From Mobula hypostoma (Eukaryota): a stretch of 64,000 nt of DNA. Below, in pieces: positions 933 to 51,661 of the stretch; position 1 is the stretch's first letter; every line of letters begins with the position of its first letter. Both the position numbers and the translations under genes were made by a program. The notes beneath the pieces are model-generated. The model had not been told where the DNA came from. It saw only the letters and a program-made list of their open reading frames with translations, and ran no database searches. The stretch spans positions 46,316,001 to 46,380,000 of the forward strand of contig NC_086097.1 in the NCBI RefSeq assembly GCF_963921235.1. Direction: 5' to 3'.

Positions 933-983
933 TACCTTGACTAACCTCTTCCCACTGTTGTTGGTAACGGCTCTATTTCATTC

Positions 984-3329
984 AACACACATCAAAGTTG
1001 CTGGTGAACGCAGCAGGCCAGGCAGCATCTGTAGGAAGAGGTGCAGTCGACGTTTCAGGCCGAGACCCTTCGTCAGGACTAACTGAAGGAAGAGTGAGTA
1101 AGGGATTTGAAAGTTGGAGGGGAGGGGAAGATCCAAAATGATAGGAAAAGACAGGAGGGGGAGGGATAGAGCCAAGAGCTGGACAGGTGATAGGCAAAAG
1201 GGGATACGAGAGGATCATGGGACAGGAGGTCCGGGAAGAAAGACAAGGGGGGGGGACCCAGAGGATGGGCAAGAGCTATATTCAGAGGGACAGAGGGAGA
1301 AAAAGGAGAGTGAGAGAAAGAATGTGTGCATAAAAATGAGTAACAGATGGGGTACGAGGGGGAGGTGGGGCCTTAGCGGAAGTTAGAGAAGTCGATGTTC
1401 ATGCCATCAGGTTGGAGGCTACCCAGATGGAATATAAGGTGTTGTTCCTCCAACCTGAGTGTGGCTTCATCTTCACAGTAGAGGAGGCAGTGGATGGACA
1501 TGTCAGAATGGGAATGGGATGTGGAATTAAAATGTGTGGCCACTGGGAGATCCTGCTTTCTCTGGCGGACAGAGCGTAGATGTTCAGCAAAGCAGTCTGC
1601 CAGTCTGCGTCGGGTCTCGCCAATATATAAAAGGCCACATCGGGAGCACCGGACGCAGTATATCACCCCAGTCGACTCACAGGTGAAGTGTCGCCTCACC
1701 TGGAAGGATTGTTTGGGGCCCTGAATGGTGGTAAGGGAGGAAGTGTAAGGGCATGTGTAGCACTTGTTCCGCTTACACGGATAAGTGCCAGGAGGGAGAT
1801 CAGTGGGGAGGGATGGGGGGGACCAATGGACAAGGGAGTTGTGTAGGGAGCGATCCCTGCGGAATGCAGGGGGGGGGGGGAGGGAAAGATGTGCTTAGTG
1901 GTGGGATCCCGTTGGAGGTGGCGGAAGTTACGGAGAATAATATGTTGGACCCGGAGGCTGGTGGGGTGGTAGGTGAGGACCAGTGGAACCCTATTCCTAG
2001 TGGGGTGGCGGGAGGATGGAGTGAGAGCAGATGTACATGAAATGGGGGAGATGCGTTTAAGAGCAGAGTTGATAGTGGAGGAAGGGAAGCCCCTTTCTTT
2101 AAAAAAGGAAGACATCGCCTTCGTCCTAGAATGAAAAGTCTCATCCTGAGAGCAGATGCGGCGGAGACGGAGGAATTGCGAGAAGGGGATGGCATTTTTG
2201 CAAGAGACAGGGTGAGAATAGGAATAGTCCAGATAGCTGTGAGAGTCAGTAGGCTTATAGTAGACATCAGTGGATAAGCTGTCTCCAGAGACAGAGACAG
2301 AAAGATCTAGAAAGGGGAGGGAGGTGTCGGAAATGGACCAGGTAAACTTGAGGGCAGGGTGAAAGTTGGAGGCAAAGTTAATAAAGTCAACGAGTTCTGC
2401 ATGCGTGCAGGAAGCAGCGCCAATGCAGTCATCGATGTAGCGAAGGAAAAGTGGGGGACAGATACCAGAATAGGCATGGAACATAGATTGTTCCACAAAC
2501 CCAACAAAAAGGCAGGCATAGCTAGGACCCATACGGGTGCCCATAGCTACACCTTTAGTTTGGAGGAAGTGGGAGGACCCAAAGGAGAAATTATTAAGAG
2601 TAAGGACTAATTCCGCTAGACGGAGCAGAGTGGTGGTAGAGGGGAACTGATTAGGTCTGGAATCCAAAAAGGAGCGTAGAGCTTTAAGACCTTCCGGATG
2701 GGGGATGGAAGTATATAAGGACTGGACATCCATGGTGAAAATAAAGCGGTGGGGGCCAGGGAACTTAAAATCATCAAAAAGTTTAAGAGCGTGAGAAGTG
2801 TCACGTACATAGGTCGGAAGGGATTGAACAAGGGGTGATAAAACAGTGTCGAGGTATGCAGAAACGAGTTCGGTGGGGTAGGAGCAAGCTGAGACAATAG
2901 GTCAGCCAGGACAGGCAGGTTTGTGGATCTTGGGTAGGAGGTAGAACCAGGAAGTGCGGGGTGTGAGAACTATAAGGTTGGTAGCAGTGGATGGGAGATC
3001 CCCTGAGCGGGTAAAGTCGGTGATGGTGTGGGAGACAATGGCCTGGTGCTCCTTAGTGGGGTCACGATCGAGGGGTAAATAAGAGGAGGTATCCGCGAGT
3101 TGTCGCTGTGCCTCGGCAAGGTAGAGGTCAGTACGCCAGACTACAACAGCACCCCCCTTATCGGCTGGTTTAATAATAAAGTTAGGATTAGTGCGGAGGG
3201 AGTGGAGAGCAGAGCGTTCCGAAGGAGTGAGTTTGGAATGGGGACAAGGTGCGGTGAAGTCGAGACGGTTGATGTCCCGTCGGCAATTAGCGATAAAGAG
3301 ATCCAGAGCAGGCAGACCAGAGCGGGGTG
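984..3329 (-). mobile_element. Young 5'-truncated Penelope-like element (Neptune type): RT + GIY-YIG endonuclease, disabled
   Basis: IIKPADKGGAVVV, GVAMGT, RYIDD RT motifs; linker C-x4-CxxC; GVIYCVRCSRCGLLYIGET GIY-YIG. In-frame TGA at 2902-2904 and a frameshift in the poly-G run at ~1870. TSD atttcattc at 975-983 and 3333-3341. Confidence 0.93.
1045..1080 (-). ncRNA. Minimal type I hammerhead ribozyme in the PLE terminal repeat
   Basis: AGUC-CUGACGA-AGGGUCUCGGCCU-GAAAC-GUC-GACU: intact core, 4-bp stem I, loopless palindromic stem III (ACGU). Confidence 0.85.
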
Positions 3330-3429
3330 TCCATTTCATTCTCCCAGTTTCTCTGGGTTCACAGAATAAATGCTGAGGACAGCACTTTTAACACCAGTAC
3401 TCTTGAAATTTTGAGGACAACACTTTTAA

Positions 3430-4065: not shown

Positions 4066-7000
4066 TAGAAACATAGAAAATAGGTGCAGGAGTAGGCCAT
4101 TAGGCCCTTCAAGCCTGCACCGCCATTTATTATGATCATGGCTGATCATCCAACTCAGAACCCCGCCCCAGCCTTCCCTCCATACCCCCTGATCCCCGTA
4201 GCCACAAGGGCCATATCTAACTCCCTCTTAAATATAGCCAATGAACTGGCCTCAACTGTTTCCTGTGGCAGAGAATTCCACAGATTCACCACTCTCTGTG
4301 TGAAGAAGTTTTTCCTAATCTCGGTCCTAAAAGGCTTCCCCTCTATCCTCAAACTGTGGCCCCTCGTTCTGGACTTCCCCAACATTGGGAACAATCTTCC
4401 TGCATCTAGCCTGTCCAATCCCTTTAGGATTTTATACGTTTCAATCAGATGCCCCCTCAATCTTCTAAATTCCAACAAGTACAAGCCCAGTTCATCCAGT
4501 CTTTCTTCATATGAAAGTCCTGCCATCCCAGGAATCAATCTGGTGAACCTTCTTTGTACTCCCTCTATGGCAAGGATGTCTTTCCTCAGATTAGGGGACC
4601 AAAACTGCACACAATACTCCAGGTGTGGTCTCACCAAGGCCTTGTACAACTGCAGTAGTACCTCCCTACTCGAATCCTCTCGCTATAAATGCCAGCATAC
4701 CATTCGCCTTTTTCACCGCCTGCTGTACCTGCATGCCCACTTTCAATGACTGGTGTATAATGACACTCAGGTCTCGTTGCACCTCCCCTTTTCCTGATCG
4801 GCCACCATTCAGATAATAATCTGTTTTCCTATTTTTGCCACCAAAGTGGATAACTTCACATTTATCCACATTAAATTGCATCTGCCATGAATTTGCCCAC
4901 TCACCCAACCTATCCAAGTCACCCTGCATCCTCTTAGCATCCTCCTCACAGCTAACACTGCCACCCAGCTTCGTGTCGTCCGCAAACTTGGAGATGCTGC
5001 ATTTAATTCCCTCATCCAAGTCATTAATATATATTGTAAACAACTGGGGTCCCAGCACTGAGCCTTGCGGTACCCCACTAGTCACCGCCTGCCATTCTGA
5101 AAAGGTCCCGTTTATTCCCACTCTTTGCTTCCTGTCTGCTAACCAATTCTCCACCCACACCAATACCTTACCCCCAATACCGTGTGCTTTAAGTTTGCAC
5201 ACTAATCTCCTGCGTGGGACCTTGTCAAAAGCCTTTTGAAAATCCAAATATACCACATCCACTGGTTCTCCCCTATCCACTCTACTAGTTACATCCTCAA
5301 AAAATTCTATGAGATTTGTCAGACATGATTTTCCTTTCACAAATCCATGCTGACTTTGTCCAATGATTTCACCGCTTTCCAAATGTGCTGTTATCACATC
5401 CTTGATAACTGACTCCAGCAGTTTCCCCACCACCGATGTTAGGCTAACCAGTCTATAATTCCCCGGTTTCTCTCTCCCTCCTTTTTTAAAAAGTGGGGTT
5501 ACATTAGCCACCCTCCAATCCTCAGGAACTAGTCCAGAATCTAACGAGTTTTGAAAAATTATCACTAATGCATCCACTATTTCTTGGGCTACTTCCTTAA
5601 GCACTCTAGGATGCAGACCATCTGGCCCTGGGGATTTATCTGCCTTCAATCCCTTCAATTTACCTAACACCACTTCCCTACTAACATGTATTTCGCTCAG
5701 TTCCTCCATCTCACTGGACCCTCTGTCCCCTACTATTTCTGGAAGATTATTTATGTCCTCCTTAGTGAAGACTGAACCAAAGTAATTATTCAATTGGTCT
5801 GCCATGTCCTTGATCCCCATTAGCAATTCACCTGTTTCTGTCTGCAGGGGACCTACATTTGTCTTTACCAGTTTTTTCCTTTTTACATATCTATAAAAGC
5901 TTTTACAGTCCGTTTTTATGTTCCCTGCCAGTTTTCTCTCATAATCTTTTTTCCCCTTCCTAATTAAGCCCTTTGTCCTCCTCTGCTGAACTCTGAATTT
6001 CTCCCAGTCCTCAGGTGAGCCACTTTCTCTGGCTAATTTGTATGCTTCTTCTTTGGAATTGATACTATCCCTAATTTCTCTTGTCAGCCACGGGTGCACT
6101 ACCTTCCTTGATTTATTCTTTTGCCAAACTGGGATGAACAATTGTTGTAGTTCATCCATGCAACCTTTAAATGCTTGCCATTGCATATCCACCGTCAATC
6201 CTTTAAGTGTCATTTGCCAGTCTATCTTAGCTAATTCACGTCTCATACCTTCAAAGTTACCCCTCTTTAAGTTCAGAACCTTTGTTTCTGAATTAACTAT
6301 GTCACTCTCCATCTTAATGAAGAATTCCACCATATTATGGTCACTCTTACCCAAGGGGCCTCTCACGACAAGATCGCTAATTAACCCTTCCTCATTGCTC
6401 AAAACCCAGTCCAGAATAGCCTGCTCTCTAGTTGGTTCCTCGACATGTTGGTTCAAAAAACCATCCCGCATACATTCCAAGAAATCCTCTTCCTCAGCAC
6501 CTTTACCAATTTGGTTCACCCAATCTACATGTAGATTGAAGTCACCCATTATAACTGCTGTTCCTTTATTGCACACATTTCTAATTTCCTGTTTAATACC
6601 ATCTCCGACCTCACTACTACTGTTAGGTGGCCTGTACACAACTCCCACCAGCGTCTTCTGCCCCTTCGTGTTACGCAGCTCTACCCATATCGATTCCACA
6701 TCTTCCCGGCTTATGTCCCTCCTTTCTATTGCGTTAATCTCTTCTTTAACCAGCAACGCCACCCCACCTCCCCTTCCTTCATGTCTATCCCTCCTGAATA
6801 TTGAATATCCCTGAACGTTAAGCTCCCATCCCTGGTCACCCTGGAGCCATGTCTCTGTGAACCCAACTATATCATAATCATTAATAACAATCTGCACTTT
6901 CAATTCATCCACCTTATTACGAATGCTCCTTGCATTGACACACAAAGCCTTCAGGCGCTCTTTTACAACTCTCTTAGCCCTTATACAATTATGTTGAAAA

Positions 7001-7687
7001 GTGGCCCTTTTTAATGCTTGCCCTAGATTTGTCAGCCTGCCACTTTTACTTTTCTCCTTAGTACTTTTTGCTTCTACCCTCACTTTACACCCCTCTGTCT
7101 CTCTGCACTGGTTCCCATCCCCCTGTTGTGAACAAACCTCCTCACGCCTAGCCTCTTTAATTTGATTCCCACCCCCCAACCATTCTAGTTTAAAGTCACC
7201 TCAGTAGCCCCCGCTAATCTCCCTGCCAGGATATTGGTCCCCCTAGGATTCAAGTGTAACCCGTCCTTTTTGTACAGGTCACGCCTGCGCCAAAACAGGT
7301 CCCAATGATCCAAAAACTTGAATCCCTGCCCCCTGCTCCAATCCCTCAGCCACGCATTTATCCTCCACCTCATCGCATTCCTACTCTCACTGTCACGTGG
7401 CACAGGCAGTAATCCCAAGATTACTACCTTTGCAGTCCTTTTTCTCAACTCCCTTCCTAGCTCCCTATATTCTCCTTTCAGGACCTCATCCCTTTTCCTA
7501 CCTATGTCATTGGTACCTATATGTACCACGACCTCTGGCTCCTCACCCTCCCACTTCAGGATATCTTGGACACGATCAGAAATATCCCGGACCCTGGCAC
7601 CAGGGAGGCAAACTACCATCCGGGTCTCTGGACTGCGTCCACAGAATCGCCTATCTGACCCCCTTACTATCGAGTCCCCTATCACAA
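4066..7687 (-). mobile_element. Young CR1 LINE, 5'-truncated in ORF1
   Basis: ORF1 SGNH/GDSL esterase (IGDSIVR, HIGTND, DGLHLN) at 7185-7685; ORF2 APE endonuclease + RT (NARSI, GDFN, SDH, GVPQGSVLGP, FADD) at 4666-7179, continuing after a frameshift at 4155-4649; 3' tail TTTCTATG repeats. Confidence 0.95.
4155..7179 (-). pseudogene. CR1 ORF2 (endonuclease-reverse transcriptase), frameshifted near 4665
   Basis: 837-aa ORF, then YKALVRPHLEYC...FFTQRVVNLWN in a shifted frame. Confidence 0.9.
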
Positions 7688-8304
7688 CTGGATGTTTAAT
7701 ATATCTGACAATATATTAAACATCCAGGTACATGCTCTACACAGAGAGCTGAACAAATCCTATTTCACTAATTACCACCCAATTTATCATCAATTATCAG
7801 CAAAACATCTCATAATTTGTGTTCCTAAATAGACGTTACCAATAATCAGCTCTGTTACCAGAATCACTCAGCCTGAGATTATTGACAGCCTTAGTCCAGG
7901 ATGGAACACACTCTAATGGTCAAAAGTCATATGTCCTAAAGAAAGATAGGCAAGTTGCTGGAGGTCAAAATACTAGACCTAAGATACAACAGCACATTTA
8001 CAGGGCAACATCGTTAGCCAGGCTATTTCAACTGTGTATTTGATGGCATTCTATCCACCATAAAATCATAAATGACAATGTTTTCTGATATACTTCTTGC
8101 CTGTTGAATGCTGTTAAATGATATAAATGATATATGCAACCTCTCAAATAAAAATAAGAGTCCATGCCTGCAGGCAACAAGCTCTAAATAGTATTCAGAC
8201 ATGAGCTGATTACTACCAAACAATAAACTGCTCCAACCCAACTGAATCCAAACATCTACCATTGTCATTCAGTAGCATTACAATCCCACTCCACCCAATT
8301 CATT

Positions 8305-19127: not shown

Positions 19128-22070
19128 TTATACCCCCATTGTCCATCCCTCCTGAATGGTCAGTCCTCATCCAATCAGGTTTTCACTCTCTCACCTTGTT
19201 TACAATCAAATTCCAGTTCTTACTTAGAGTGAGACCTTAGTCTTCGTTAAAATTCCTTTCCTCTATTTTTATTTCAATGGCTTCCTTCACCAGGCGGTCC
19301 CAAAAGCCACTGGTGCAGCACAGTAGTTTTGTGCCTTTGAAGTCAATCCTATGGCTATTGTGAGTGCAACAATCTCCTACCACTGATTTCTCCGGATAAC
19401 CCAAACAAATACACCACCTGTGCTCCTTGATGCGGGTTTCCACCATACAGAATGGTTACAAAGTTGAAGGAATTAACTGGACCCTTAAAAGGGGCCAATG
19501 GAAAAACCCTAACTATGAGGAGGAACCTGTCGCTATCGCCTGACTTCCCTATTATTTCCACGATTTCTGGAAGGATCGTTGGGATCCTGAAGAAATACTG
19601 GATTAATACCATCCATAAACCCATAAAGAAGCTCAAATCACAGTTGTTGCAAGTCAACTATGACCTGAGACTCAGGACAGCTGGTGTTTACAGGATTCCC
19701 TGTGAATGCAAAACACTGTACATCAGCCAGACAGGACATAACGATGGAAACCCACATCAAGAAGCACAGGAGGTGTATCTGTTTGGGGAATTAGGTAAAG
19801 AAAGCCATTGAAATAGAACTAGTGGAAAAGAATTTTAACAAAGACGAAGGTCTTGCTCTAAGTAAGAGCAGGAATTTGGTTCTAAATAAGGTGGGATAGC
19901 GGAAATCTGATTGGATGAGGACTAACCAATCAGGAGGGATGGATGACAGGGATATAAATACCACTGGACTAGACATGTCCAGACATCATCCGTGATGAAG
20001 ATGGCAGAGACGGTCATCAAAGTGTCAGTTAAAATTGATACATGTACCCAGCCTGAAACCAGAGAGAGTTTATTTGTCATATACACCAGCAATGCACTAG
20101 ATCCTTTTTCAATACTATGCACTTCCTTTTACAGCTTAAAAAAAATCTACCACCACCTCAACTTCAGTCTTTGGCACTATTCAAATATTTTCCATGGGAT
20201 TTAGGTCTAGATATTTATTTATGAGCTCCAAGAAAAAAGATTAAATTCCAAGGACATACACTTTACCAGTTACATGAAAAGATCTTTTGAGTTGTTGAAG
20301 AGTGGCTAACATGGACTTGTTTCTCTTTGTATATTTCAGGATAAACTCAATCTTCAGAACTTAATCAATGCACAGGTAGGCATTATTAAAAGAGTCCTAA
20401 ATTAGTTTGATAACATTTGAACTTTCAGTGCTAACCAATTTGATTGAGCGCATAATTAAAAGTTAAAGAACCTAAGGACAAAGAAACAAAAGCATGAATT
20501 CATACAGCAATTTGTCAAAAATGTTTTGCATCAAACCAAATGTACAAATTAAAAATAGTTTCTAGTTTAGACTAATTTCAGAGTGAAAAAGATTCCTGTA
20601 CCTTAATCTTCCTACCTATCTATAATTTGCAATGTAGTTTGCACTCACTTCACACATGCAGCAGTAGTATAAAACATTATCTGCCTTTCAAGTTTCAGTT
20701 ATAAATACTGCCTAAAATATTCAGAACCCTATTCTTGTAGCTTTGAATGGATATCTTTATATCAAACACATAAACATACAGAGAATTTGTAACAGGAGAT
20801 AAGGCAATATGCATCCATGATATGTACGACCAAAATCTTTCACTGAAATCAATTTATATTGTTTCTAAAACCTGGCATTTTTCCATTGTGTTAAAGTTAA
20901 TTAATTTGTTCAACTGAACTAAAAGCAGTTTGTCAGTGATAACACACAATTTGACTTATGTACATAATGATGGGTGAGGCTCATCACAAGACTGAAGCTG
21001 CAGATTTTTTTTTGCTTTTTAAAAAAAAAATTAAACATAAATAGCAAATTCAGATTCTAGTGAAAAAAGCAAAAAATGTTTTATAATTATAAAGAAACTG
21101 GAATACTGAACAAATAGAATAAGGGAAACAATGGAATAAGGAATACTGAAATGGTCCTTAGTCATCATCTGTGCCCCTCTGCCCCTCTCCATAAAATTCA
21201 TCTTTTTTATTTCAAAAAAAAAATACAATTAACTCAACCCTTCGATTGAGATTCAAGAAAGGAACGTAATGCTAGGTAAAAAAAAGACTAACAATGTTCT
21301 TTTTGAACTGGACCAAACAATTGAGGGATAAATATTTTCCCAAAATGGCATTAGGCACCACCTTCTTTGCATTCTTCTTTCATTTCACAACACAGTGAAA
21401 TGTAGCGAGCTACATAAATATACTGCTAACCATTGCAAGTGCTCTGAAGTGAACATCAACTAGACTAAACCTTCAAGCTTCCTTAGCAATAAAAAACATC
21501 TAAGTTAATTTGCTCCTGTTAATCTTCAGATCCTGCACATTCATACAAGCGATCATATTTTATGATCAAAACAGATCAAAGATTAAATAATGATCAAAGA
21601 ACTCTATGTTGGTAATACTTGGTCTGCTTGCTGGCTCAAAATCAAATAATGCAGCTGTCAGTTCAGTCTTGTTTATCGCAGGAGAACAATAAAGTGTCAT
21701 ACAATGAGTGAAACAGAAAATCATTTATCTTCCATCCAAAATTACACATGATGCTATTCAATCCAATTTGCATTACAGTCAAAAAGAATAATCTTAAGGT
21801 TACAGCTTGTGGTAATTTCTACATAACAAGTGACTCCAGCAGAAACATTCCACGTTCTTAAATACCAGTAAAGTGGAGGATAAATGTACTAACTTTTAAC
21901 AAGACAATGCAATTGACCTAGTAACAAAATATCACCCTCTTCACTAAATATCATGTATTTAAGATAAATTTATCAACTCATGGTTAATCCATATGGCAAA
22001 CATGGAAGGAGACTAATTAATGAAAACTACAACAGGATGTGCATAATGAATTTGTTGCATCACACAGTTA

Positions 22071-23810: not shown

Positions 23811-24530
23811 CTATAGATAACAGCTTGACTATCAGCAGACATAGTTCAGGATCTCAGGTCTTCAGCAGTACAGCTGGGATACCATCTGGTCCCATATCTT
23901 AGCTGAATCCAATGCTCACAGTTCTTTGTGATTACATCATAGAATCAATAGACATGGCTAAATACTAGAGAAAACGGGAAAACAGAAGTGATCCCCTACC
24001 TAGAAATTCTGGCTGAATGAACTTCAAAATGGTACAGCCTTAACTCTAGCATTAACATACTGGTAGTGCCAACTAATAGTTGGAATGTATTTGGAGCTTC
24101 TTCCTCCTCCTAGCTGTAAATATACAAGTTACATAATTTTGATCTTATCTATTGATTGAGTTCCATCAACTGCAAACTCTTTTTGGTAGTTAGCATAAAA
24201 GTAGTGATGCTGCAGCTTCACTGGAGCTGGGGGATAGGAGGCACTTCATTATTAGACAATCCTGGTACTGCTCTCAACATGTCCTACTGCACTCATCATT
24301 GAACCCAAATCTGGTCTGAACCAATGGATGAGCTAGGCCACAAGATTACAAGTTGTAATGGAATACACTTCTACTGCTGCTGACAGCCCACTTTTTATAG
24401 ATGCAGATATGAGCAGGAAGATTTATTTAGTCTATCCCATCCAGCACAATCCAATACTAGAAAATAAGCAACATACATCAAAGTTGCTGGTGAACGCAGC
24501 AGGCCAAGCAGCATCTATAGGAAGAGGCGC

Positions 24531-24566
24531 AGTCGACGTTTCAGGCCGAGACCCTTCGTCAGGACT
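24531..24566 (-). ncRNA. Minimal hammerhead ribozyme (left arm of palindrome)
   Basis: Same intact motif as at 1045-1080. Confidence 0.85.
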
Positions 24567-25673
24567 AACTGAAGGAAGAGTGAGTAAGGGATTTGAAAGC
24601 TGGAGGGGGAGGGGGAGATGCAAAATGATAGGAGAAGACAGGAGGGGGAGGGATAGAGCCGAGAGCTGGACAGGTGATAGGCAGAAGGGGATACGAGAGG
24701 ATCATGGGACAGGAGGTCCGGGAAGAAAGACAGGGGGGGGGGGTGACCCAGAGGATGGGCAAGAGGTATATTCAGAGGGACAGAGGGAGAAAAAGGAGAG
24801 TGAGGGAAAGAATGTGTGCATAAAAATGAGTAACAGATGGGGTACGAGGGGGAGGTGGGGCCTTAGCGGAAGTTAGAGAAGTCGATGTTCATGCCATCAG
24901 GTTGGAGGCTACCCAGACGGAATATAAGGTGTTGTTCCTCCAACCTGAGTGTGGCTTCATCTTTACAGTAGAGGAGGCCGTGGATAGACATGTCAGAATG
25001 GGAATGGGATGTGGAATTAAAATGTGTGGCCACTGGGAGATCCTGCTTTCTCTGGCGGACAGAGCACAGATGTTCAGCAAAGCGGTCTCCCAGTCTGCGT
25101 CGGGTCTCACCAATATATAAAAGCCTTTTATATATTGGTGAGACCCGACGCAGACTGGGAGACCGCTTTGCTGAACATCTGTGCTCTGTCCGCCAGAGAA
25201 AGCAGGATCTCCCAGTGGCCACACATTTTAATTCCACATCCCATTCCCATTCTGACATGTCTATCCACGGCCTCCTCTACTGTAAAGATGAAGCCACACT
25301 CAGGTTGGAGGAACAACACCTTATATTCCGTCTGGGTAGCCTCCAACCTGATGGCATGAACATCGACTTCTCTAACTTCCGCTAAGGCCCCACCTCCCCC
25401 TCGTACCCCATCTGTTACTCATTTTTATGCACACATTCTTTCCCTCACTCTCCTTTTTCTCCCTCTGAATATACCTCTTGCCCATCCTCTGGGTCACCCC
25501 CCCCCCTTGTCTTTCTTCCCGGACCTCCTGTCCCATGATCCTCTCGTATCCCCTTCTGCCTATCACCTGTCCAGCTCTCGGCTCTATCCCTCCCCCTCCT
25601 GTCTTCTCCTATCATTTTGCATTTCCCCCTCCCCCTCCAGCTTTCAAATCCCTTACTCACTCTTCCTTCAGTT

Positions 25674-25709
25674 AGTCCTGACGAAGGGTCTCGGCCTGAA
25701 ACGTCGACT
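25674..25709 (+). ncRNA. Minimal hammerhead ribozyme (right arm of palindrome)
   Basis: agtc ctgacga agggtctcggcct gaaac gtc gact. Confidence 0.85.
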
Positions 25710-26427
25710 GCGCCTCTTCCTATAGATGCTGCTTGGCCTGCTGTGTTCACCAGCAACTTTGATGTATGTTGCTTGAATTTCCAGCATCTGCAGAATTCCT
25801 GTTGTTTGCTAGAAAATAAGACTTGTTTTCTGCCATTAAGCTACGATCTGGATAACAATAACTCACAGCAGACTTGAGTAAATAAAAGCTTTCAAGAGAG
25901 AATAGGACACATATCTAACAAGGGAATAAGCTGTACTGCAAAAGACTGGGGAAATGGCATTAATCAGATACCTCTTTCAAAGTGTCATGACCAAGCAGAA
26001 TAGACTGAGTAACTAGCTTTGGTGCTGTGAGTACTCCTTTTATGAAATATGCATGTTTAGATAACTAAATTATTTTCTGTCCATAAGTGCCTGTCTCAAG
26101 ACATTATTATAAGATGGGAAAGTAATAGATCAACAGGAGTGCTCTACTTCAATGAAGAAATAACGCCACTTCCTTTCATGTACAAATTCTCCTCACGTGG
26201 CAAAGGGACTATGGGAAAAAAAATCAACATGCATTTACAGGTTAAAATTAATAACATCATGTTCATGACCAACTATTTTTAACTCTGATTGAGTTCAAAA
26301 ACAATGTAAGAATTGATCAAAGCTGTTTCATGATCTTCAATTTGCAATCAGACACAATTAACAATATTTAATGATCAGGATGGGGAAAAAAGGAAGCAAA
26401 GGAGACAAAAAGGAAAAAAAAACTGTA

Positions 26428-35300: not shown

Positions 35301-36495
35301 GGCTACGTCCACACTACGCCGGGATAATTTTGAAAACGAAGCTTTTTCTCTTCGTTTTGACCCTCTGTCCACACTAAAACGGCGTTTTCATCCCCCGAAA
35401 ATGAAGACTTTCAGAAACAGTCTCCAGAGTGAATAAATCTGAAGACGCCTAATATCCGTTGCAGTGTATACAGGGTAACCGGAGCTTTTTAAAACCGCTG
35501 TCGTGACGTGCCGGAACAGATGGCAGCAGCGCGGCATTTCATTGTTTTCTTATTATTATTATTACTACTTTATTGTCGCCAAACAATTGATACTAGAGCG
35601 TACAATCATCACAGCGATATTTGATTCTGTGCTTCGCAGAACCTAACAATTTTAGAACAGACGGCAACGAGACTGAAGCCAGAAGGGTTAGAAATGTACT
35701 CACCAAATACTTTGACCCATAGCTTACTGAATAAGTAAGTACACTCACTTTGCCCTGTTTTCTGTCCTTGCTTGTATGAAGGTGGTTTACCTATTTATCC
35801 AAGTACTTCTCTGACAATAGATGTGTAACAGCCTAATGTAACATTGTATGGAAATACAAGATAACACTGATGCAGACATGTTTTATACATTTAACAAGGT
35901 GCTTTATTAATGCAACAGAGTTAGACAGTTTTTCAATGTTCGTCGTCAGCCAGGTTATACTGTCCGTGAACTCCCAGTCAGTTGCCTCCAAACACTCCAG
36001 TATTTGTTATTAGTTTTAAGTCCACCTGCGCGAGAGCCAAGAGCAATTCCTTTTAAGTTTTTCTACTCTGTAACTGGACAAACGTGCAAAAGTATACCGT
36101 TTCCTCTTCACTTGTTTTCTGTGTGTCCTGTGCGTGCCCAGTAGAGGAGATTTGCCCAAATATCCGTGTTAGTGTGGACAGAGATATTTTGAGAAACACT
36201 TAGTGTGTACGCCTACACAAGGAATTCTGCAGATGCTGGAAATTCAAGCAACACACATTAAAGTTGCTGGTGAACGCAGCAGGCCAGGCAGCACCCCTAG
36301 GAAGAGGTACAGTCGACGTTTCGGGCCAAGATCCTTCGTCGGGTCTCAGCCCAAAATGTCGACTGTACCTCTTCCTAGAGATGCTGCCTGGCCTGCTGCG
36401 TTCACCAGCAATTTTGATGTGTGTAGTGTGTATGCCTGTCGTTTTTACTCGAAACCAGTGTTTTCAAAATTATCTGGCGTAGTGTGGACGTAGCC
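35301..36495. mobile_element. Non-autonomous PIF/Harbinger-like element, copy 2, carrying a LINE-tail insert (~35550-35636) and a fold-back PLE
   Basis: Perfect TIR GGCTACGTCCACACTACGCC / GGCGTAGTGTGGACGTAGCC flanked by TGA and TCA. Confidence 0.8.
36215..36423. mobile_element. Short fold-back PLE insertion, turning inside the hammerhead
   Basis: Inverted arms meet at 36340/36341; TSD tagtgtgta(c/t)gcct at 36201-36214 and 36424-36437; paralogous empty site at ~35125-35145. Confidence 0.9.
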
Positions 36496-40205: not shown

Positions 40206-41920
40206 GTCTTAATGAAGAAGCTCACTCTATGAAGACAGTTTTCCTGTTGCCCCTCCAGAAGGTGATGTGGCCACATCTTGTATAATATCCTTGCATGTCA
40301 AACGCACACCAGGTAGCAACATCGGTGTCTGGATTCCCTAGCTATGGTAGTGAAAAGCATTTGGATCTGTCCATTTTTCACGAGGATCTTGACATTCTAA
40401 TTCCCAAATTTAATATAATGGTGTGGAAGGTAACAGTGCATGGTTTCTTTTATTGTCGAGTAGTTGCATTATACCAGCTGCTGCACGGGCTCTTATATTT
40501 TTAATCAATGTTATTATACTTGGACATTGTATTGGTGGTACGAAAGTGCTGAAATGCTGTCATTTGAGTTCATACAGAATTTTTTTTTTAATTGCTATTT
40601 GCCAATGTATTTTAAAATAAATGACCCAAACTAAAAGACAGCATACTAGAATCTCTTAATGCCTTCAAGAGAGGTGGAAACAAAAACCATCAATGGATTC
40701 AAAAATGAAAATGGTTGGCTACATAAAAGAATAATTTGCATAGGAATGGAAAAAGATTGGCTAAAGCAATCTTATTGGACTCATTCCCCAAATATCTTCC
40801 TTCTACGTGATAACAATTCTATGATTCTGTTTTATAAAATATGTTCAATTTTTTTTTATAAATGTTCTTACTACCCTAGTTTAAATAAAAGCTTAAAAAA
40901 GTAAAACTGTTCTATCTTCTAAACTCCTACATGTTGTTCTCTAAGTGATACTTAATCACTTTAAGTATGTTTGCAATTTAATCTACACATTTAATGTAAA
41001 ATGTATTTGCAAAGAACCAAATACATTTGATATCAAGAGAATTTTTCAGTCAGTTATCTACTCAAAAAGAAAATATCTACAAGTACTTCAAGCAAAACCT
41101 ACTGCAACTGTAGTGACAAATACTATTTTGAATCAACTTTTCAATTTACAACTTGCATTTCAGTGATATTATCCATAGGCATACGTGCAAATACACATTT
41201 ACAAATATAAGCAGTCAGTCAACATTGAGAATGAACATATGCATGCTTGTATAAAGATGGCACTGTCCAAATGTTGGTGTGTAACATCTGATATTTACAT
41301 TTTAAGTAATCATCTGTACAACTAAGTAATCATCTTTAGTAAATGAATTTGCTGCTTTCTCACTTTCGTTCAACAAGAACTTAATCTATACAATTTGCAA
41401 GAGGAATGAAGAGTTCCTTCAAGATTAAAACAGTAAATTTCTTATGTTTTATAGGACTCAAATGTCTCTACCCTCCCATACAAAATAGAGCCAAATGCAT
41501 AAACCTGAATGTTCAAAGTACACAGGAAACTGACTAAACTCAAAGAAAATTATTGCTTACTGAATGACCCTTGTAAGGTTCTCCAAATGTTATTCTACAC
41601 CTATTCTTAGATTTAATACATATATCCAAATATTTGTTTCCGAATTGTTTATAAAATTGCAGTATAGAATAATTAATGTTTATCTCTATTAAAGGCAATC
41701 AATAAAGACATCACGGTTTAAAAGAAATAAATCAAAGATTGCATTATGAAACTATTTACTACTGCACTCCTTACAAAATAACAAACCTGGTAAATGGTTT
41801 ATTATTGTCACATGTACCAAGACAAAACAAACAGCTCTTGTTTGCCTGCCATTCATTCCATACACATGTCTATCAAGGTAGTACAAATTGGAACAAATCA
41901 AACAGAATGTAGAATACAAT

Positions 41921-42926
41921 CAACAGGAATTCTGCAGATGCTGGAAATTCAAGCAACACACATAAAAGTTGCTGGTGAACGCAGCAGGCCAGGCAGCATC
42001 TCTAGGAAGAGGTACAGTCAATATTTCGGGTCGAGACCCTTCATCAGGACTAACTGAAGGAAGAGTTAGTAACAGATTTGAAAGTGGGAGGGGGAGGGGA
42101 GATCCAAGATGATAGGAGAAGACAGGAGGGGGAGGGATGGAGCCAAGAGCTGGACAGGTGATTGGCAAAGGGGATATGAGAGGATCATGGGACAGGAGGT
42201 CCTGGGAGAAAGACGGGGGGGGGGACCCAGAGGATGGGCAAGGGGTATAGTCAGAGGGACAGAGGGAGAAAAAGGAGAGTGAGAGAAAGAATGTGTGTAT
42301 ATAAATAAATAACAGATGGGGTACGAGGGGGAGGTGGGGCATTAGTGGAAGTTAGAGAAGTCAACGTTCATGCCATCAGGTTGGAGGCTACCCAGACGGA
42401 ATATAAGGTGTGGTTCCTCCAACCTGAGTGTGGCTTCATCTTTACAGTAGAGGAGGCCATGGACAGACATGTCAGAATGGGAATGGGATGTGGAATTAAA
42501 ATGTGTGGCCACTGGGAGATCCTGCTTTCTCTGGTGGACAGAGCGTAGGTGTTCAGCAAAGTGGTCTCCCAGTCTGCGTCGGGTCTCGCCAACATATAGA
42601 AGGCCACATTGGGAGCACCAGATGCAGTATATCACCCCAGCTGACTCACAGGTGAAGTGTCGCCTCACCTGGAAGGACTGTTTGGGTCCCTGAATGGTGG
42701 TAAGGGAGGAAGTGTAAGGGCATGTGTAGCACTTGTTCCACTTACAAGGATAAGTGCCAGGAGGGAGATCAGTGGGGAGGGATGGGGGGGATGAATGGAC
42801 AAGGGAGTCACATAGGAAGCAATCCCTGCGGAAAGCGGGGGAGGGGGGAGGGAAAGATGTGCTTAGTGGTGGGATCCCGTTGGAGGTGGCGGAAGTTACA
42901 GAGAATAATATGTTGGACAATTATGT
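41921..42926 (-). mobile_element. Neptune-type PLE 3' fragment (linker zinc motif + GIY-YIG + tail) nested in an old LINE 3' UTR
   Basis: GTYPCKWNKCYTCPY, GVIYCIWCSQCGLLYVGET; TSD tagaatacaat at 41910-41920 and 42927-42937; mutated hammerhead at 42016-42051. Confidence 0.92.
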
Positions 42927-47844: not shown

Positions 47845-48345
47845 ATGACTTGATATAGCAACTGCTCTGGCCATAACTGCAAGAAACTATAGAGAGTGGT
47901 GGACACAGCTTAGTACCTCAAGGAAACTAGGCTCCACTCCATACCACAGATTTTGTGTATACTTCTAGCTGCCTCAGTAATGCAGCTAATATAACCAAAT
48001 GTCACACTCAGATCAGACACTCTCTCTTGTTAACTCTCCCATCAGGCTGAAAGCAGGTACCACCAGGTTCAAGGGCGGTTTCTATCCTGCTGTTATAAGA
48101 CTATTGAATGGTTCCTTAGTGTGAATTACAGACACTTGACATCACAATCTGCTTCGTTACAACTTTGCACCTTCTTATCTTACCCGCACTTTCTCTGTAA
48201 CTGTAACACTTTATTCTGTATTCCCTTATTGTTTTACCTGCTACTACCTCAATGCACTACTGTAATGAATTCATCTCTACAAATGGTATGCATGACATAT
48301 TTTTCACTATACCTCTGTATGTGTGACAATAATAAAACAATTAAC
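47845..48345 (+). mobile_element. Rex/L2 LINE 3' fragment
   Basis: LQRVV..A, TTRFK.GFYPAVIRLLN-like motifs and 3' UTR. Confidence 0.75.
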
Positions 48346-49164
48346 TTGACAATAATAAAACAATTAACTAACTTCCAAACTTCATAAGCATTCTTCTCTA
48401 CAGGACTTTCTGTACTGTGGTTAAATTGATGTAACAATTAAGACAATTCATTACTGTATATTGACTTTCTATATATGCGATTATAACTTTAAGAAAATTG
48501 AAGATTTTACCATAAAGTGTCAAGTTTCAAATACAGCCTTAACACTCATGATTTTTAATATCCCACATCCATACATTTATCATGACTATTTTACACAAAT
48601 AGAAATACTGAAAGCAAAATAAAATCTGTTGAAGTTGCAAGAAATAAATTCACTCAACACACTCCCTCTTCTCAAATATTCCCTTCCCTATTTCATTCCA
48701 CATCTGTGACAAAATCATGAGATCATACCATACAGAGCAAAGATTTATTTGCATAGAGCAGTAATGGAATACATGCACACACAAATATCAACATATTTGG
48801 ACTTTTCCTGCTTTCTGAAATTCATAGGCACCTGAACTGAAAAGGATTAGGGAAGAAACTAAGATTTTTTTTGGCATGTGTGCTTTACCTCACATATGGA
48901 CCAAATTAAAACTATGTCTGGCAGTTACTAACTGAATCGATTCAATTTGTATATCTGCCTACCTATGTTAATTGAGTCTAATGGAAATATATCTAGATCC
49001 AGCAAATGTCGCCTGAAAACACAGTCACACAGCACAGAAACAGACCCTCAGCCCTTCAGTAAGTAAGATGTTTCTAAGTGAACCATCAAAAACCTTTTTT
49101 TAAAAAAAACCGTAGATGGTGGAAATCCAGCATTTTCTCTTTTTTCATATCAAGTGCCCATCAA

Positions 49165-50049: not shown

Positions 50050-51661
50050 CAGGTTTCCCCCCACCATCCGAAGGTACAGCATTCCTACGAAACGGTTCGT
50101 AAGCCAGAATGTCGTAAAGCGAAGAAGCAATTACCATTTATTTATATGGGAAAAATTTTTGCGCGTTCTCAGACCCAGAAATAACCTATCAAATCATGCC
50201 AAATAACACATAAAACCTAAAATAACAGTAACATACAGTAAAAGCAGGAATGATATGACAAATACACAGCCTATATAAAGTAGAAATACTTCTCTACAAT
50301 CATTGCCTGCACTGTTCTCCATAGCAAAAATCTCACGCAAGCGCTCTCAGCAGAAACACTCTCTCCAGTAACCTTTAAGCTATGAAGCTGCCAAATCATA
50401 CCAAATAATGCATAAAAATACACAGCCTATATAAAGTAGAAATAATGTATGTACAGTGTAATATCACTTACCGGAATCGGGAAGACAGCACCGAGCACAC
50501 TGATGATGGTGTGTTAGGCTGAGTCGTCAGAGGTTGGGGTGGTGCAGTGGTCCCCAACCTCTGGGCCACCGACCAATACCAATCCGCGACGCATACAGGG
50601 GTACAGCGGTGGCCGGGACGCACCCAGCACATCTTTAAGAAAAAAGCCCAAATAAACAAGCTAAATTAATTAGGTGCCGCCCAGCAATTAGATATCGGCC
50701 CAGATCAGAGGCGATTGTCGATTGTGTCGCCTCTGATCTGGGCCAACATTTACGTGCCGAGCGGCACCTAATTAATTAGCTTGTTTATTTCTGCTTTTTT
50801 TCTTAAAGATGTGCTGGGTGCGTCCCGCCTACCGTTGCATTCTCTGCAAATCAGTATCTGTCCGTGGCCCGGGGGTTGGGGTGGTGGGACACTGAGGTGT
50901 CGTCTGTTTCCATCAGGGCAGGCAGGTCATTTTCTATGTCTGCCTGCCTCGATGTCGAAGGTCGAGGTTCGTCGTCTGTTGTGGCTGATGTGGAAGGCTT
51001 GCTTGACTGCTAGCCTTGTGCATTTTCCTATCATACAGTTCTTTGTAAGCACTCAAACCATCTTGCAAATAAGCCTTAAACCGACGTACCCTTTCAAAAT
51101 TAAAGTCGTACTTTCCTGCAATTATTGCAGCAAAAATCTGAAGCAGTTGCTTTACATTCAGTTCCTGGATGACTTCACTTTCGGTCCGTTCGATACTGCA
51201 TTCAGTTTCAATTGTTATCCTTTCCTCTTCCAATTGCATCAGCTCTTCATCTATCAGTTCTTGGTCATAGGATGTCAAAACCTCTTCAACATCATCTTCG
51301 TCAACTTCCACAAGCCAAACTCACTTTGTCCTTACTTCGTTCACCACGATCAAAACACTTAATTATGTCTAGTTTTACGCTAAGTGTAACACCCTTACGA
51401 GCTCTTTCAGGCTTTTCCGATACCTTAGAACTCATCTTGCTAACGGCTGCTCACAGGCACTTGTTTAAGCAATGCCGGCTAGAATGCAGTTCCGAATCCA
51501 GGGGAGGAGCAGCTGCTCAGGACGCGCACTGCTTTTTTTTCACGCACTGCCTTTTTTCGTAACAGTGAAAACACCTTGTTAGCCAAAACAGGGAACTAAT
51601 GTAGGTCCTTCGTAACAGCGAGGTTTTGTAACGCGAATGTTCGAAAAGCGGGGGACACCTG
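50050..51661 (-). mobile_element. Tigger/pogo-like non-autonomous DNA transposon containing an internal palindromic MITE
   Basis: TA-CAGGTTTCCCC / GGGGACACCTG-TA termini; TIGD1-like C-terminal EVDEDDVEEVL...ELIDEELMQLEE at 50934-51311. Confidence 0.85.
50545..50881. repeat. hAT-type MITE-like long imperfect palindrome
   Basis: CAGTGGTCCCCAACC start; ~100-bp arms centred near 50720. Confidence 0.7.

What the first reader, a model, noticed from the sequence alone, without database searches (positions are those of the whole stretch)
24457..25820. Near-perfect 1.3-kb palindrome made by a single Penelope-like insertion, with a ribozyme on each strand
Seen: two ~650-bp PLE 3' ends joined with a 1-nt loop at 25124, at the element's native AAAAGGCC site, inside one 12-bp TSD (ctagaaaataag). 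The arms differ by a few substitutions and one ~10-bp indel (left 24775-24790 versus right ~25460), and only the right arm has the final ~35-nt tail. Established: inverted pseudo-LTR arrangements occur in PLEs, and spacerless long palindromes are usually unstable. Inference: read-through transcription in either direction would give a ~650-bp hairpin dsRNA (an endo-siRNA or ADAR substrate) whose 3' arm holds an intact hammerhead masked by its own antisense.
Basis: partly seen in the sequence, partly recalled or inferred. Interest (0 to 1): 0.7.

Follow-up and report, generated by a model that had tools for sequence, protein, structure and literature searches.

The report
Mirror-image Penelope retrotransposon insertion scar
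This 1.3-kb DNA palindrome is one recent insertion of a Penelope-type jumping gene laid down as two head-to-head stumps, a known layout that is common in this genome, and it was likely made by the enzyme copying its RNA twice, once from each cut DNA strand.

Summary
The palindrome is real. Arms 24469-25123 (-) and 25125-25808 (+) differ by 3 substitutions and an 8-nt indel. A 34-nt tail is on the right arm only, and a 12-bp TSD flanks the unit. A related organism has the empty site with one TSD copy. The arms are 3' ends of an endonuclease-bearing, Neptune-like Penelope element. The layout (inverted 5'-truncated copy, one-sided tail, TSD) is published (PMC3846280, PMC8557442) and common here: 9 such pairs among the first 100 of 14,104 motif matches. 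The GGCC fold site is no hotspot (3 junctions, against 12-16 at three other sites). The hammerhead lacks helix III, a dimer-only type, so a lone copy is predicted inactive even unmasked. No siRNA or editing evidence was obtainable. Sister insertions favour two cDNAs primed from both nicks at the element's two RT start sites over fold-back: 9 of 9 pairs have one tailed and one tail-less arm, the tail-less arm is longer in 6 of 9, and 10 of 43 pairs differ at 3 or more subfamily sites. The scan noted this pattern before in at least 14 genomes.

The parts
24457..24468 (+). Left copy of the 12-bp target-site duplication; its last 3 nt (AAG) are microhomology with the tail-less arm's end
   Evidence: single copy at the empty site in organism B
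24469..25123 (-). Left arm: 5'-truncated PLE 3' end lacking the last 34 nt (tail-less arm)
24531..24566 (-). Minimal type I hammerhead motif, mirror copy (no helix III)
24781..24788 (-). Second unit of an 8-nt tandem repeat; present in the left arm, lost from the right arm (the two-unit state is the usual one in the family)
25124..25124 (.). Centre of symmetry at the native GGCC tetramer; 1-nt microhomology joint
25125..25808 (+). Right arm: 5'-truncated PLE 3' end running to the element's normal terminus (tailed arm)
25125..25385 (+). C-terminal 86 codons of the GIY-YIG endonuclease (LLYIGET...NFR, stop); cut off before the GIY motif, no RT, so non-autonomous
   Evidence: no Pfam hit alone, while the sister copy 1373-1891 gives PF01541 at E=0.0066, below cut-off
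25674..25709 (+). Minimal type I hammerhead motif: core CUGACGA at 25678, GAAA at 25698, predicted cut after C25705; helix III reduced to the self-complementary ACGU, dimer-dependent
   Evidence: motif class from PMC4209133
25775..25808 (+). 34-nt PLE tail, on this arm only
25809..25820 (+). Right copy of the target-site duplication

Best explanation
This is a non-coding, non-autonomous insertion of a Penelope-like retrotransposon, two 5'-truncated 3' ends joined head to head inside one target-site duplication, and it was likely made by double target-primed reverse transcription. The endonuclease would nick both strands 12 nt apart. One nick would prime a cDNA at the element's outer start site (tailed arm), the other at the inner start site about 34 nt upstream (tail-less arm). 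Both cDNAs would copy RNA from the same source element, stop at about the same place, and be joined end to end at the GGCC tetramer with 1 nt of microhomology. Shown: the structure, TSD, empty site, family, frequency and tail asymmetry. Inferred: the order of events and the two-primer mechanism. The hairpin RNA and the masked hammerhead are likely by-products with no selected function.
For: (a) One-of-each rule. All 9 pairs picked only by position in the list have one arm ending 0-2 nt from the terminus, one ending 28-133 nt short, and a 13-15-nt TSD. In 39 further two-arm units (the window among them), the outer arm ends 0-5 nt short in 38 and the other 28-46 nt short in 34. (b) Single-arm copies also end at either place, e.g. 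L032, L042, L045, L046, L055, L058 and window 977 end 31-39 nt short. The inner end is therefore a start site in its own right, matching the two RT start sites that bound the tail in vitro (PMC11167929, text parts 1-2). (c) That paper also shows both target strands cut and extended and predicts a protein dimer. (d) The tail-less arm reaches further 5' than the tailed arm by more than 30 nt in 6 of 9 unselected pairs, and by more than 2 nt in 7 of 25 tight pairs. Neither arm then contains the other. (e) 10 of 43 pairs differ at 3 or more non-CpG sites polymorphic in the family; in L134, L140, L147 and L149 both arm haplotypes recur in other copies, the rarer one far above chance in three of them. 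This points to two templates. (f) Arms are still closer than random copies (2.8 vs 14.8 diagnostic differences per kb) and share private variants (1.06 per kb in tight pairs vs 0.04). Of these, 8 of 15 are A>G or T>C, against 33 of 215 one-arm changes (p=0.0013), so they are likely template-borne rather than converted germline mutations. The window's arms share two such variants and differ at no diagnostic substitution. (g) Arms stop within 30 nt of each other in 3 of 9 pairs vs 0.33 expected (permutation p=0.0025; one of the 3 is complex; p=0.023 with 17 pairs), as if both ran off a common RNA end.
Against: For this one copy fold-back cannot be excluded: the arms start 1 nt apart, the inner 335 nt are identical, and the private variants are shared. 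The 8-nt loss in the tailed arm only could be later slippage. Central deletion of an unstable fold-back palindrome could also leave either arm longer, which weakens (d). Diagnostic differences rise weakly with age (Spearman 0.36, p=0.018), and ectopic conversion among more than 14,000 copies could produce some of them; in L016 neither haplotype recurs. [quoted passage not shown] L157 has two tail-less arms and no TSD. The in vitro work is on a Poseidon-clade element, whereas this one is Neptune-like by motif.
Confidence: 0.65

Rival explanations
1. Fold-back self-priming. A single cDNA primed at the tail folds on itself at GGCC and is copied back; endonuclease resolution or early joining removes 34 nt from the second arm, and later central deletions create the unequal arms in sister copies. 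PMC3846280 proposes self-priming on an antisense template, and PMC8557442 attributes the tail to endonuclease resolution.
For: The window's arms start 1 nt apart, share private variants and have an identical inner 335 nt. All 3 junctions found in this 30-nt window fold at the self-complementary GGCC. Near-coincident starts are enriched. The tailed arm is longer in 13 of 25 tight pairs.
Against: Zero-loop junctions (L002, L035) cannot be literal hairpins, which leave 4-6 central bases unpaired (PMC7999016, passage). The tail-less arm is longer in 6 of 9 unselected pairs. Arms carry different family haplotypes in some units. Lone copies begin at the same inner site. A control site chosen for lacking a self-complementary word has as many tight junctions (15) as sites with an 8-nt palindrome (12, 16).
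Confidence: 0.25
2. A functional hairpin locus: the palindrome is kept because read-through RNA yields endo-siRNAs or an ADAR substrate that silences the family, with a regulated ribozyme.
For: Predicted ~650-bp hairpin. Low-depth contigs from runs guessed to be RNA cover unique flanks (X9, X10). Antisense small RNAs to Penelope families are reported in rotifers (PMC3846280, passages).
Against: The insertion is absent from the related organism at 1.6% flank divergence, so it is young. It is one of roughly a thousand similar units (extrapolated). The hammerhead is the dimer-only type with one sense copy per strand. No host gene was identified.
Confidence: 0.07
3. Assembly fold-back artefact, or two independent insertions that happen to abut.
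For: No read spanning the centre was available.
Against: One TSD encloses both arms; the empty site in organism B lacks both; the arms differ at 4 places; both junctions appear in short-read contigs (22-24 nt into the arms); 9 head-to-head vs 0 tail-to-tail pairs within 5 kb among the first 100 matches (read from the list), all 9 with TSDs.
Confidence: 0.03

Closest known systems
Insertion unit of endonuclease-positive Penelope-like elements with an inverted 5'-truncated copy, one-sided 30-40-bp tail and TSD (Pen2a_Av in PMC3846280; fig. 2 legend and text of PMC8557442; passages read)
   Same: Head-to-head inverted copy at the 5' end, palindrome at the junction, tail on one side only (34 nt), TSD around the whole unit, hammerhead motif near the 3' end.
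   Different: Both arms are long (about 650 nt, reaching into the endonuclease ORF) and start 1 nt apart, so the whole insert is a palindrome. The host is a vertebrate with over 14,000 motif copies, enough for junction statistics.
PAc (Poseidon, Anolis) in vitro mechanism, PMC11167929 (parts 1-2 of 4 of the text read)
   Same: Two RT start sites bounding the tail, about 90-125 nt downstream of hammerhead stem II; both target strands cut and extended; AT-rich target.
   Different: The parts read do not derive the inverted arm from the two start sites and found no strand preference for either site. This element has the CX4CxxC linker of Neptune/Nematis, which Poseidon lacks.
Minimal hammerheads of metazoan PLEs (PMC4209133, passages read)
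   Same: Conserved core, short helices I and II, self-complementary positions 15.2-16.2, no helix III.
   Different: The two copies here lie on opposite strands, so they cannot form the tandem dimer; activity was not tested.
LINE-1 twin priming (recalled; seen only in search listings)
   Same: Both nicked target strands prime cDNA, giving an inverted 5' part joined by microhomology inside one TSD.
   Different: L1 twin priming inverts an upstream segment without duplicating the 3' end. Here both arms copy the same 3' region, from two fixed start sites.

Membership tests
EN+ Penelope-like element | Single ORF with RT (DKG motif, YxDD) and C-terminal GIY-YIG endonuclease | tested here: met
   Met in a sister copy, not in the stump itself: L052 (98% identical to the right arm) has an 873-aa open frame with DKG at 278, YIDD at 519 and YIG at 790. 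Window copy 977-3334 gives RVT_1 E=1.3e-5 and GIY-YIG E=0.0066, both below Pfam cut-offs.
EN+ Penelope-like element | CCHH zinc-finger motif with two cysteines between GIY and YIG | tested here: met
   VIYCVRCSRCGLLYIGET followed by two histidines in L052; definition from PMC8557442.
EN+ Penelope-like element | Hammerhead motif in the terminal repeat region | tested here: met
   Minimal motif at 25674-25709; no Rfam match at gathering threshold.
EN+ Penelope-like element | 5' truncation, inverted adjacent copy, 30-40-bp one-sided tail, TSD | tested here: met
Neptune clade | CX2-5CxxC linker between RT and endonuclease | tested here: met
   CKRNKCYTC at residue 740 of the L052 frame; shared with Nematis according to PMC8557442.
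Neptune clade | RT phylogeny | not tested
   No tree was built; reference PLE proteins were not fetched.
Active hammerhead ribozyme (monomer) | Helix III able to close in a single molecule | tested here: not met
   GAAAC is followed directly by GUC; folding of the region does not give a three-way junction.
Active hammerhead ribozyme (monomer) | Self-cleavage | not testable with these tools
   Needs an in vitro assay.
Hairpin-RNA / endo-siRNA locus | Transcript through both arms, phased small RNAs or A-to-I edits | not testable with these tools
   Only contigs of runs guessed to be RNA were available.

The most novel reading that the evidence does not exclude
Head-to-head Penelope insertions are the genomic record of a double target-primed reaction in which each nicked strand is assigned its own RT start site (one tailed, one tail-less), with one or two RNA templates. 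This genome's roughly thousand long two-arm units would then answer the open question of how PLE inverted repeats and tails arise. They would also show that a vertebrate germ line tolerates hundreds of near-spacerless palindromes with 400-650-bp arms without purging or homogenising them.
Probability: 0.6. Interest if true: 0.5.

Novelty: new member of a known kind. Interest (0 to 1): 0.3.

Why it matters
The single locus matters little: it is a dead stump of a published architecture. The population it belongs to bears on an open point. PMC8557442 and PMC11167929 both say the steps that give PLE tandem/inverted structures are undefined, and PMC3846280 infers self-priming. The arm statistics here favour priming from both nicks and give predictions that the existing in vitro system could test directly. 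I did not find this model in the library searches (open-licence papers only; older subscription papers on Penelope and all supplements unseen). Other agents of this scan reached it on other genomes. The many surviving tight palindromes are also a natural data set on palindrome stability and on retroelement-derived double-stranded RNA in a vertebrate.

Tried and rejected
Rfam scan of the window: 0 matches. GGCC as a genome-wide fold hotspot: rejected, 3 junctions there vs 12, 16 and 15 at three other sites, including one chosen without a self-complementary word (the patterns differ in length and degeneracy, so the counts are only roughly comparable). Arm-to-arm gene conversion near the centre: no clear gradient in 28 tight pairs (1.4% at 0-50 nt, 1.7-2.8% out to 450 nt, confounded with element region); the window (335 nt) and L002 (289 nt) do have identical inner parts, chance about 0.055 for the window alone. 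Strand- or arm-biased C>T change, suggested by the window's 3 of 3: no clear bias after normalising for base content; private changes 79 vs 89 in tailed and tail-less arms. Shared variants as A-to-I editing of one sense RNA: not supported, A>G 4 and T>C 4. The 8-nt indel as a subfamily marker: rare in unselected arms (1 of 34 pairs); among pairs selected for the loss in the tailed arm, the partner shared it in 5 and lacked it in 8 (read from the table), which does not separate the models. Exact-match junction mapping was broken by variants, so BLAST ends were used. Host gene: 137 frames scanned with Pfam; the SNX FERM hit at 48034-48384 is a spurious repeat end, the PDB look-up for it failed on a frame slip, and long frames within 50 kb on either side gave no recognisable host protein. 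No RNA holder listed. Rows dropped: of 42 tight loci L116-L157, 25 simple two-arm units were analysed; 17 were left out (complex or partly deleted units, the duplicate L145, L157 with two tail-less arms, and L116, L135, L146, which gave no row). L135, L136 and L145 were left out of the offset count.

Full report
Observation. The palindrome is in the sequence as described. The arms are 24469-25123 (-) and 25125-25808 (+), with one base between them. They differ by three substitutions and an 8-nt indel, all 335 nt or more from the centre, and the last 34 nt are on the right arm only. The 12-mer CTAGAAAATAAG occurs twice in the window, once on each side. A contig from a related organism (run X5) joins 24456 to 25809 directly, so the ancestral site held one copy of the 12-mer and nothing else; its flanks differ from the window by 21 substitutions in about 1,325 nt, 1.6%. 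Short-read contigs of the window's organism enter each arm from its flank without differences, but by only 22-24 nt, and nothing spanning the centre was seen. Arm divergence of 3 in 650 against 1.6% between organisms suggests a recent insertion (inference; assumes no conversion).

What it is. The right arm begins with the last 86 codons of a GIY-YIG endonuclease, followed by a pyrimidine-rich stretch, a hammerhead motif and the tail. A 98%-identical copy elsewhere (L052) has an 873-aa open frame with DKG, YIDD, a CX4CxxC linker and the CCHH-type GIY-YIG domain. By the definitions in PMC8557442 (passages) this is an endonuclease-positive PLE, Neptune-like by motif; no tree was built. The stump encodes no RT and only part of the nuclease.

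The layout is known. PMC3846280 describes an inverted copy 37 bp shorter than the direct ones, a 31-bp tail and a TSD, and infers self-priming from palindromes at inverted junctions (passages). PMC8557442 describes an inverted 5'-truncated copy and a 30-40-bp tail at one end as common (passages). It is also common here. A 26-mer at the fold site has 14,104 exact matches; the first 100 listed include 9 head-to-head pairs within 3.2 kb and no tail-to-tail pair within 5 kb, roughly 1,300 long two-arm units if extrapolated. In 60 arbitrarily spaced 10-kb stretches, 4 of 21 family insertions are two-armed. Junctions with at most 30 nt between motif copies number 3 at this site and 12, 16 and 15 at three others. 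GGCC is the exact fold point in all three local cases but is no genome-wide hotspot.

How it likely forms. All 9 position-picked pairs have one arm ending at the terminus, one ending 28-133 nt short, and a 13-15-nt TSD. In 39 other two-arm units the ends cluster at 0-5 nt (38 of 39) and 28-46 nt (34 of 39). Single-arm copies end at the same two places. PMC11167929 showed in vitro that a lizard PLE cuts and extends both target strands and starts reverse transcription at two sites that bound the tail (text parts 1-2). The simplest synthesis (inference) is that each nick primes its own cDNA, one at each site, and the two 3' ends are joined. Three results favour this over one cDNA folding back. 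The tail-less arm is longer at its 5' end by more than 30 nt in 6 of 9 pairs. 10 of 43 pairs differ at three or more family-polymorphic non-CpG sites, in several cases with both haplotypes present in other copies. Zero-loop junctions exist (L002, L035). Arms are nonetheless usually from the same or a close source: 2.8 diagnostic differences per kb against 14.8 for random pairs, and shared private variants about 25 times commoner in tight pairs than in random pairs, with a spectrum unlike post-insertion decay. Arm starts coincide more often than chance (3 of 9 within 30 nt, p=0.0025), which would follow if both copies ran off a common RNA end.

Against it. For the window copy itself fold-back fits nearly as well. 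Later central deletion could make unequal arms out of fold-back products; diagnostic differences rise weakly with age; the in vitro paper saw no strand preference for the start sites; and L157 breaks the one-of-each rule. I put double priming at 0.65 and fold-back at 0.25.

The RNA claims. A read-through RNA is predicted to form a ~650-bp hairpin, and the hammerhead region pairs far more strongly with its antisense (-89.4 kcal/mol) than with itself (-11.5) or a second sense copy (-31.3). But the motif has no helix III. Such minimal motifs are thought to work as tandem dimers, and a single one showed no cleavage (PMC4209133, passages). Each strand here has one sense copy, so it is predicted inactive regardless. 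Transcription was not shown: no listed run is on record as RNA, runs guessed to be RNA give only low-depth unspliced contigs on the flanks, and no host exon was found.

Stability. Long spacerless palindromes are fragile in model systems (PMC7999016, passages). Among 42 tight junctions, offsets of 0-2 nt are not depleted (10 counted, a few of them artefacts of mismatches, against 6.4 expected), and arms are not clearly homogenised near the centre. This is a survivor sample and says nothing about loss rates.

Novelty. The object is a new member of a known kind. The double-priming reading was not found in the searches (listings and abstract starts; open-licence library only; supplements not read; the retrozyme preprint 10.64898/2026.07.22.740005 was read in passages and adds nothing on this). 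The scan's index holds 29 similar findings in at least 14 genomes, several with the same reading; these are unreviewed and are not counted as support. I recorded my reading in that call before seeing them. Interest 0.3.

Noticed in passing
window 977-3334 (-) and 41917-42918 (-): Two more copies of the same PLE family: a 2.4-kb tail-less copy with broken RT and endonuclease frames, and a 1-kb tailed copy.
   Followed up: partly
window 36220-36433: A second, small head-to-head pair of PLE ends (arms 36242-36334 / 36341-36433, 86%, 6 nt apart). A sub-threshold Pfam TT_ORF2-like hit falls on a frame over it, likely spurious.
   Followed up: no
window 4096-7715 (-): LINE with an 844-aa open frame (endonuclease plus RT, CR1-like by recall) at 4666-7200.
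   Followed up: no
window 19128-19957 and 50604-50837: Older inverted pairs: 164-nt arms at 84% with 502 nt between, and 111-nt arms at 80% with 12 nt between.
   Followed up: no
L035 1165-1586; L016, L021, L047, L120, L131, L162: Complex units with extra short inverted pieces between the two main arms, still inside one TSD in most, suggesting repeated template switches at the junction.
   Followed up: partly
L144 and L145; L135 and L136: Pairs of loci 160 kb and 376 kb apart on one contig with the same junction, likely segmental duplications of an existing insertion.
   Followed up: no
window 25125-25459 and L002 centre: Both GGCC-centred simple palindromes have perfectly identical inner parts (335 and 289 nt) with all differences further out; possible cruciform-driven homogenisation limited to zero-loop cases, too few to test.
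   Followed up: partly
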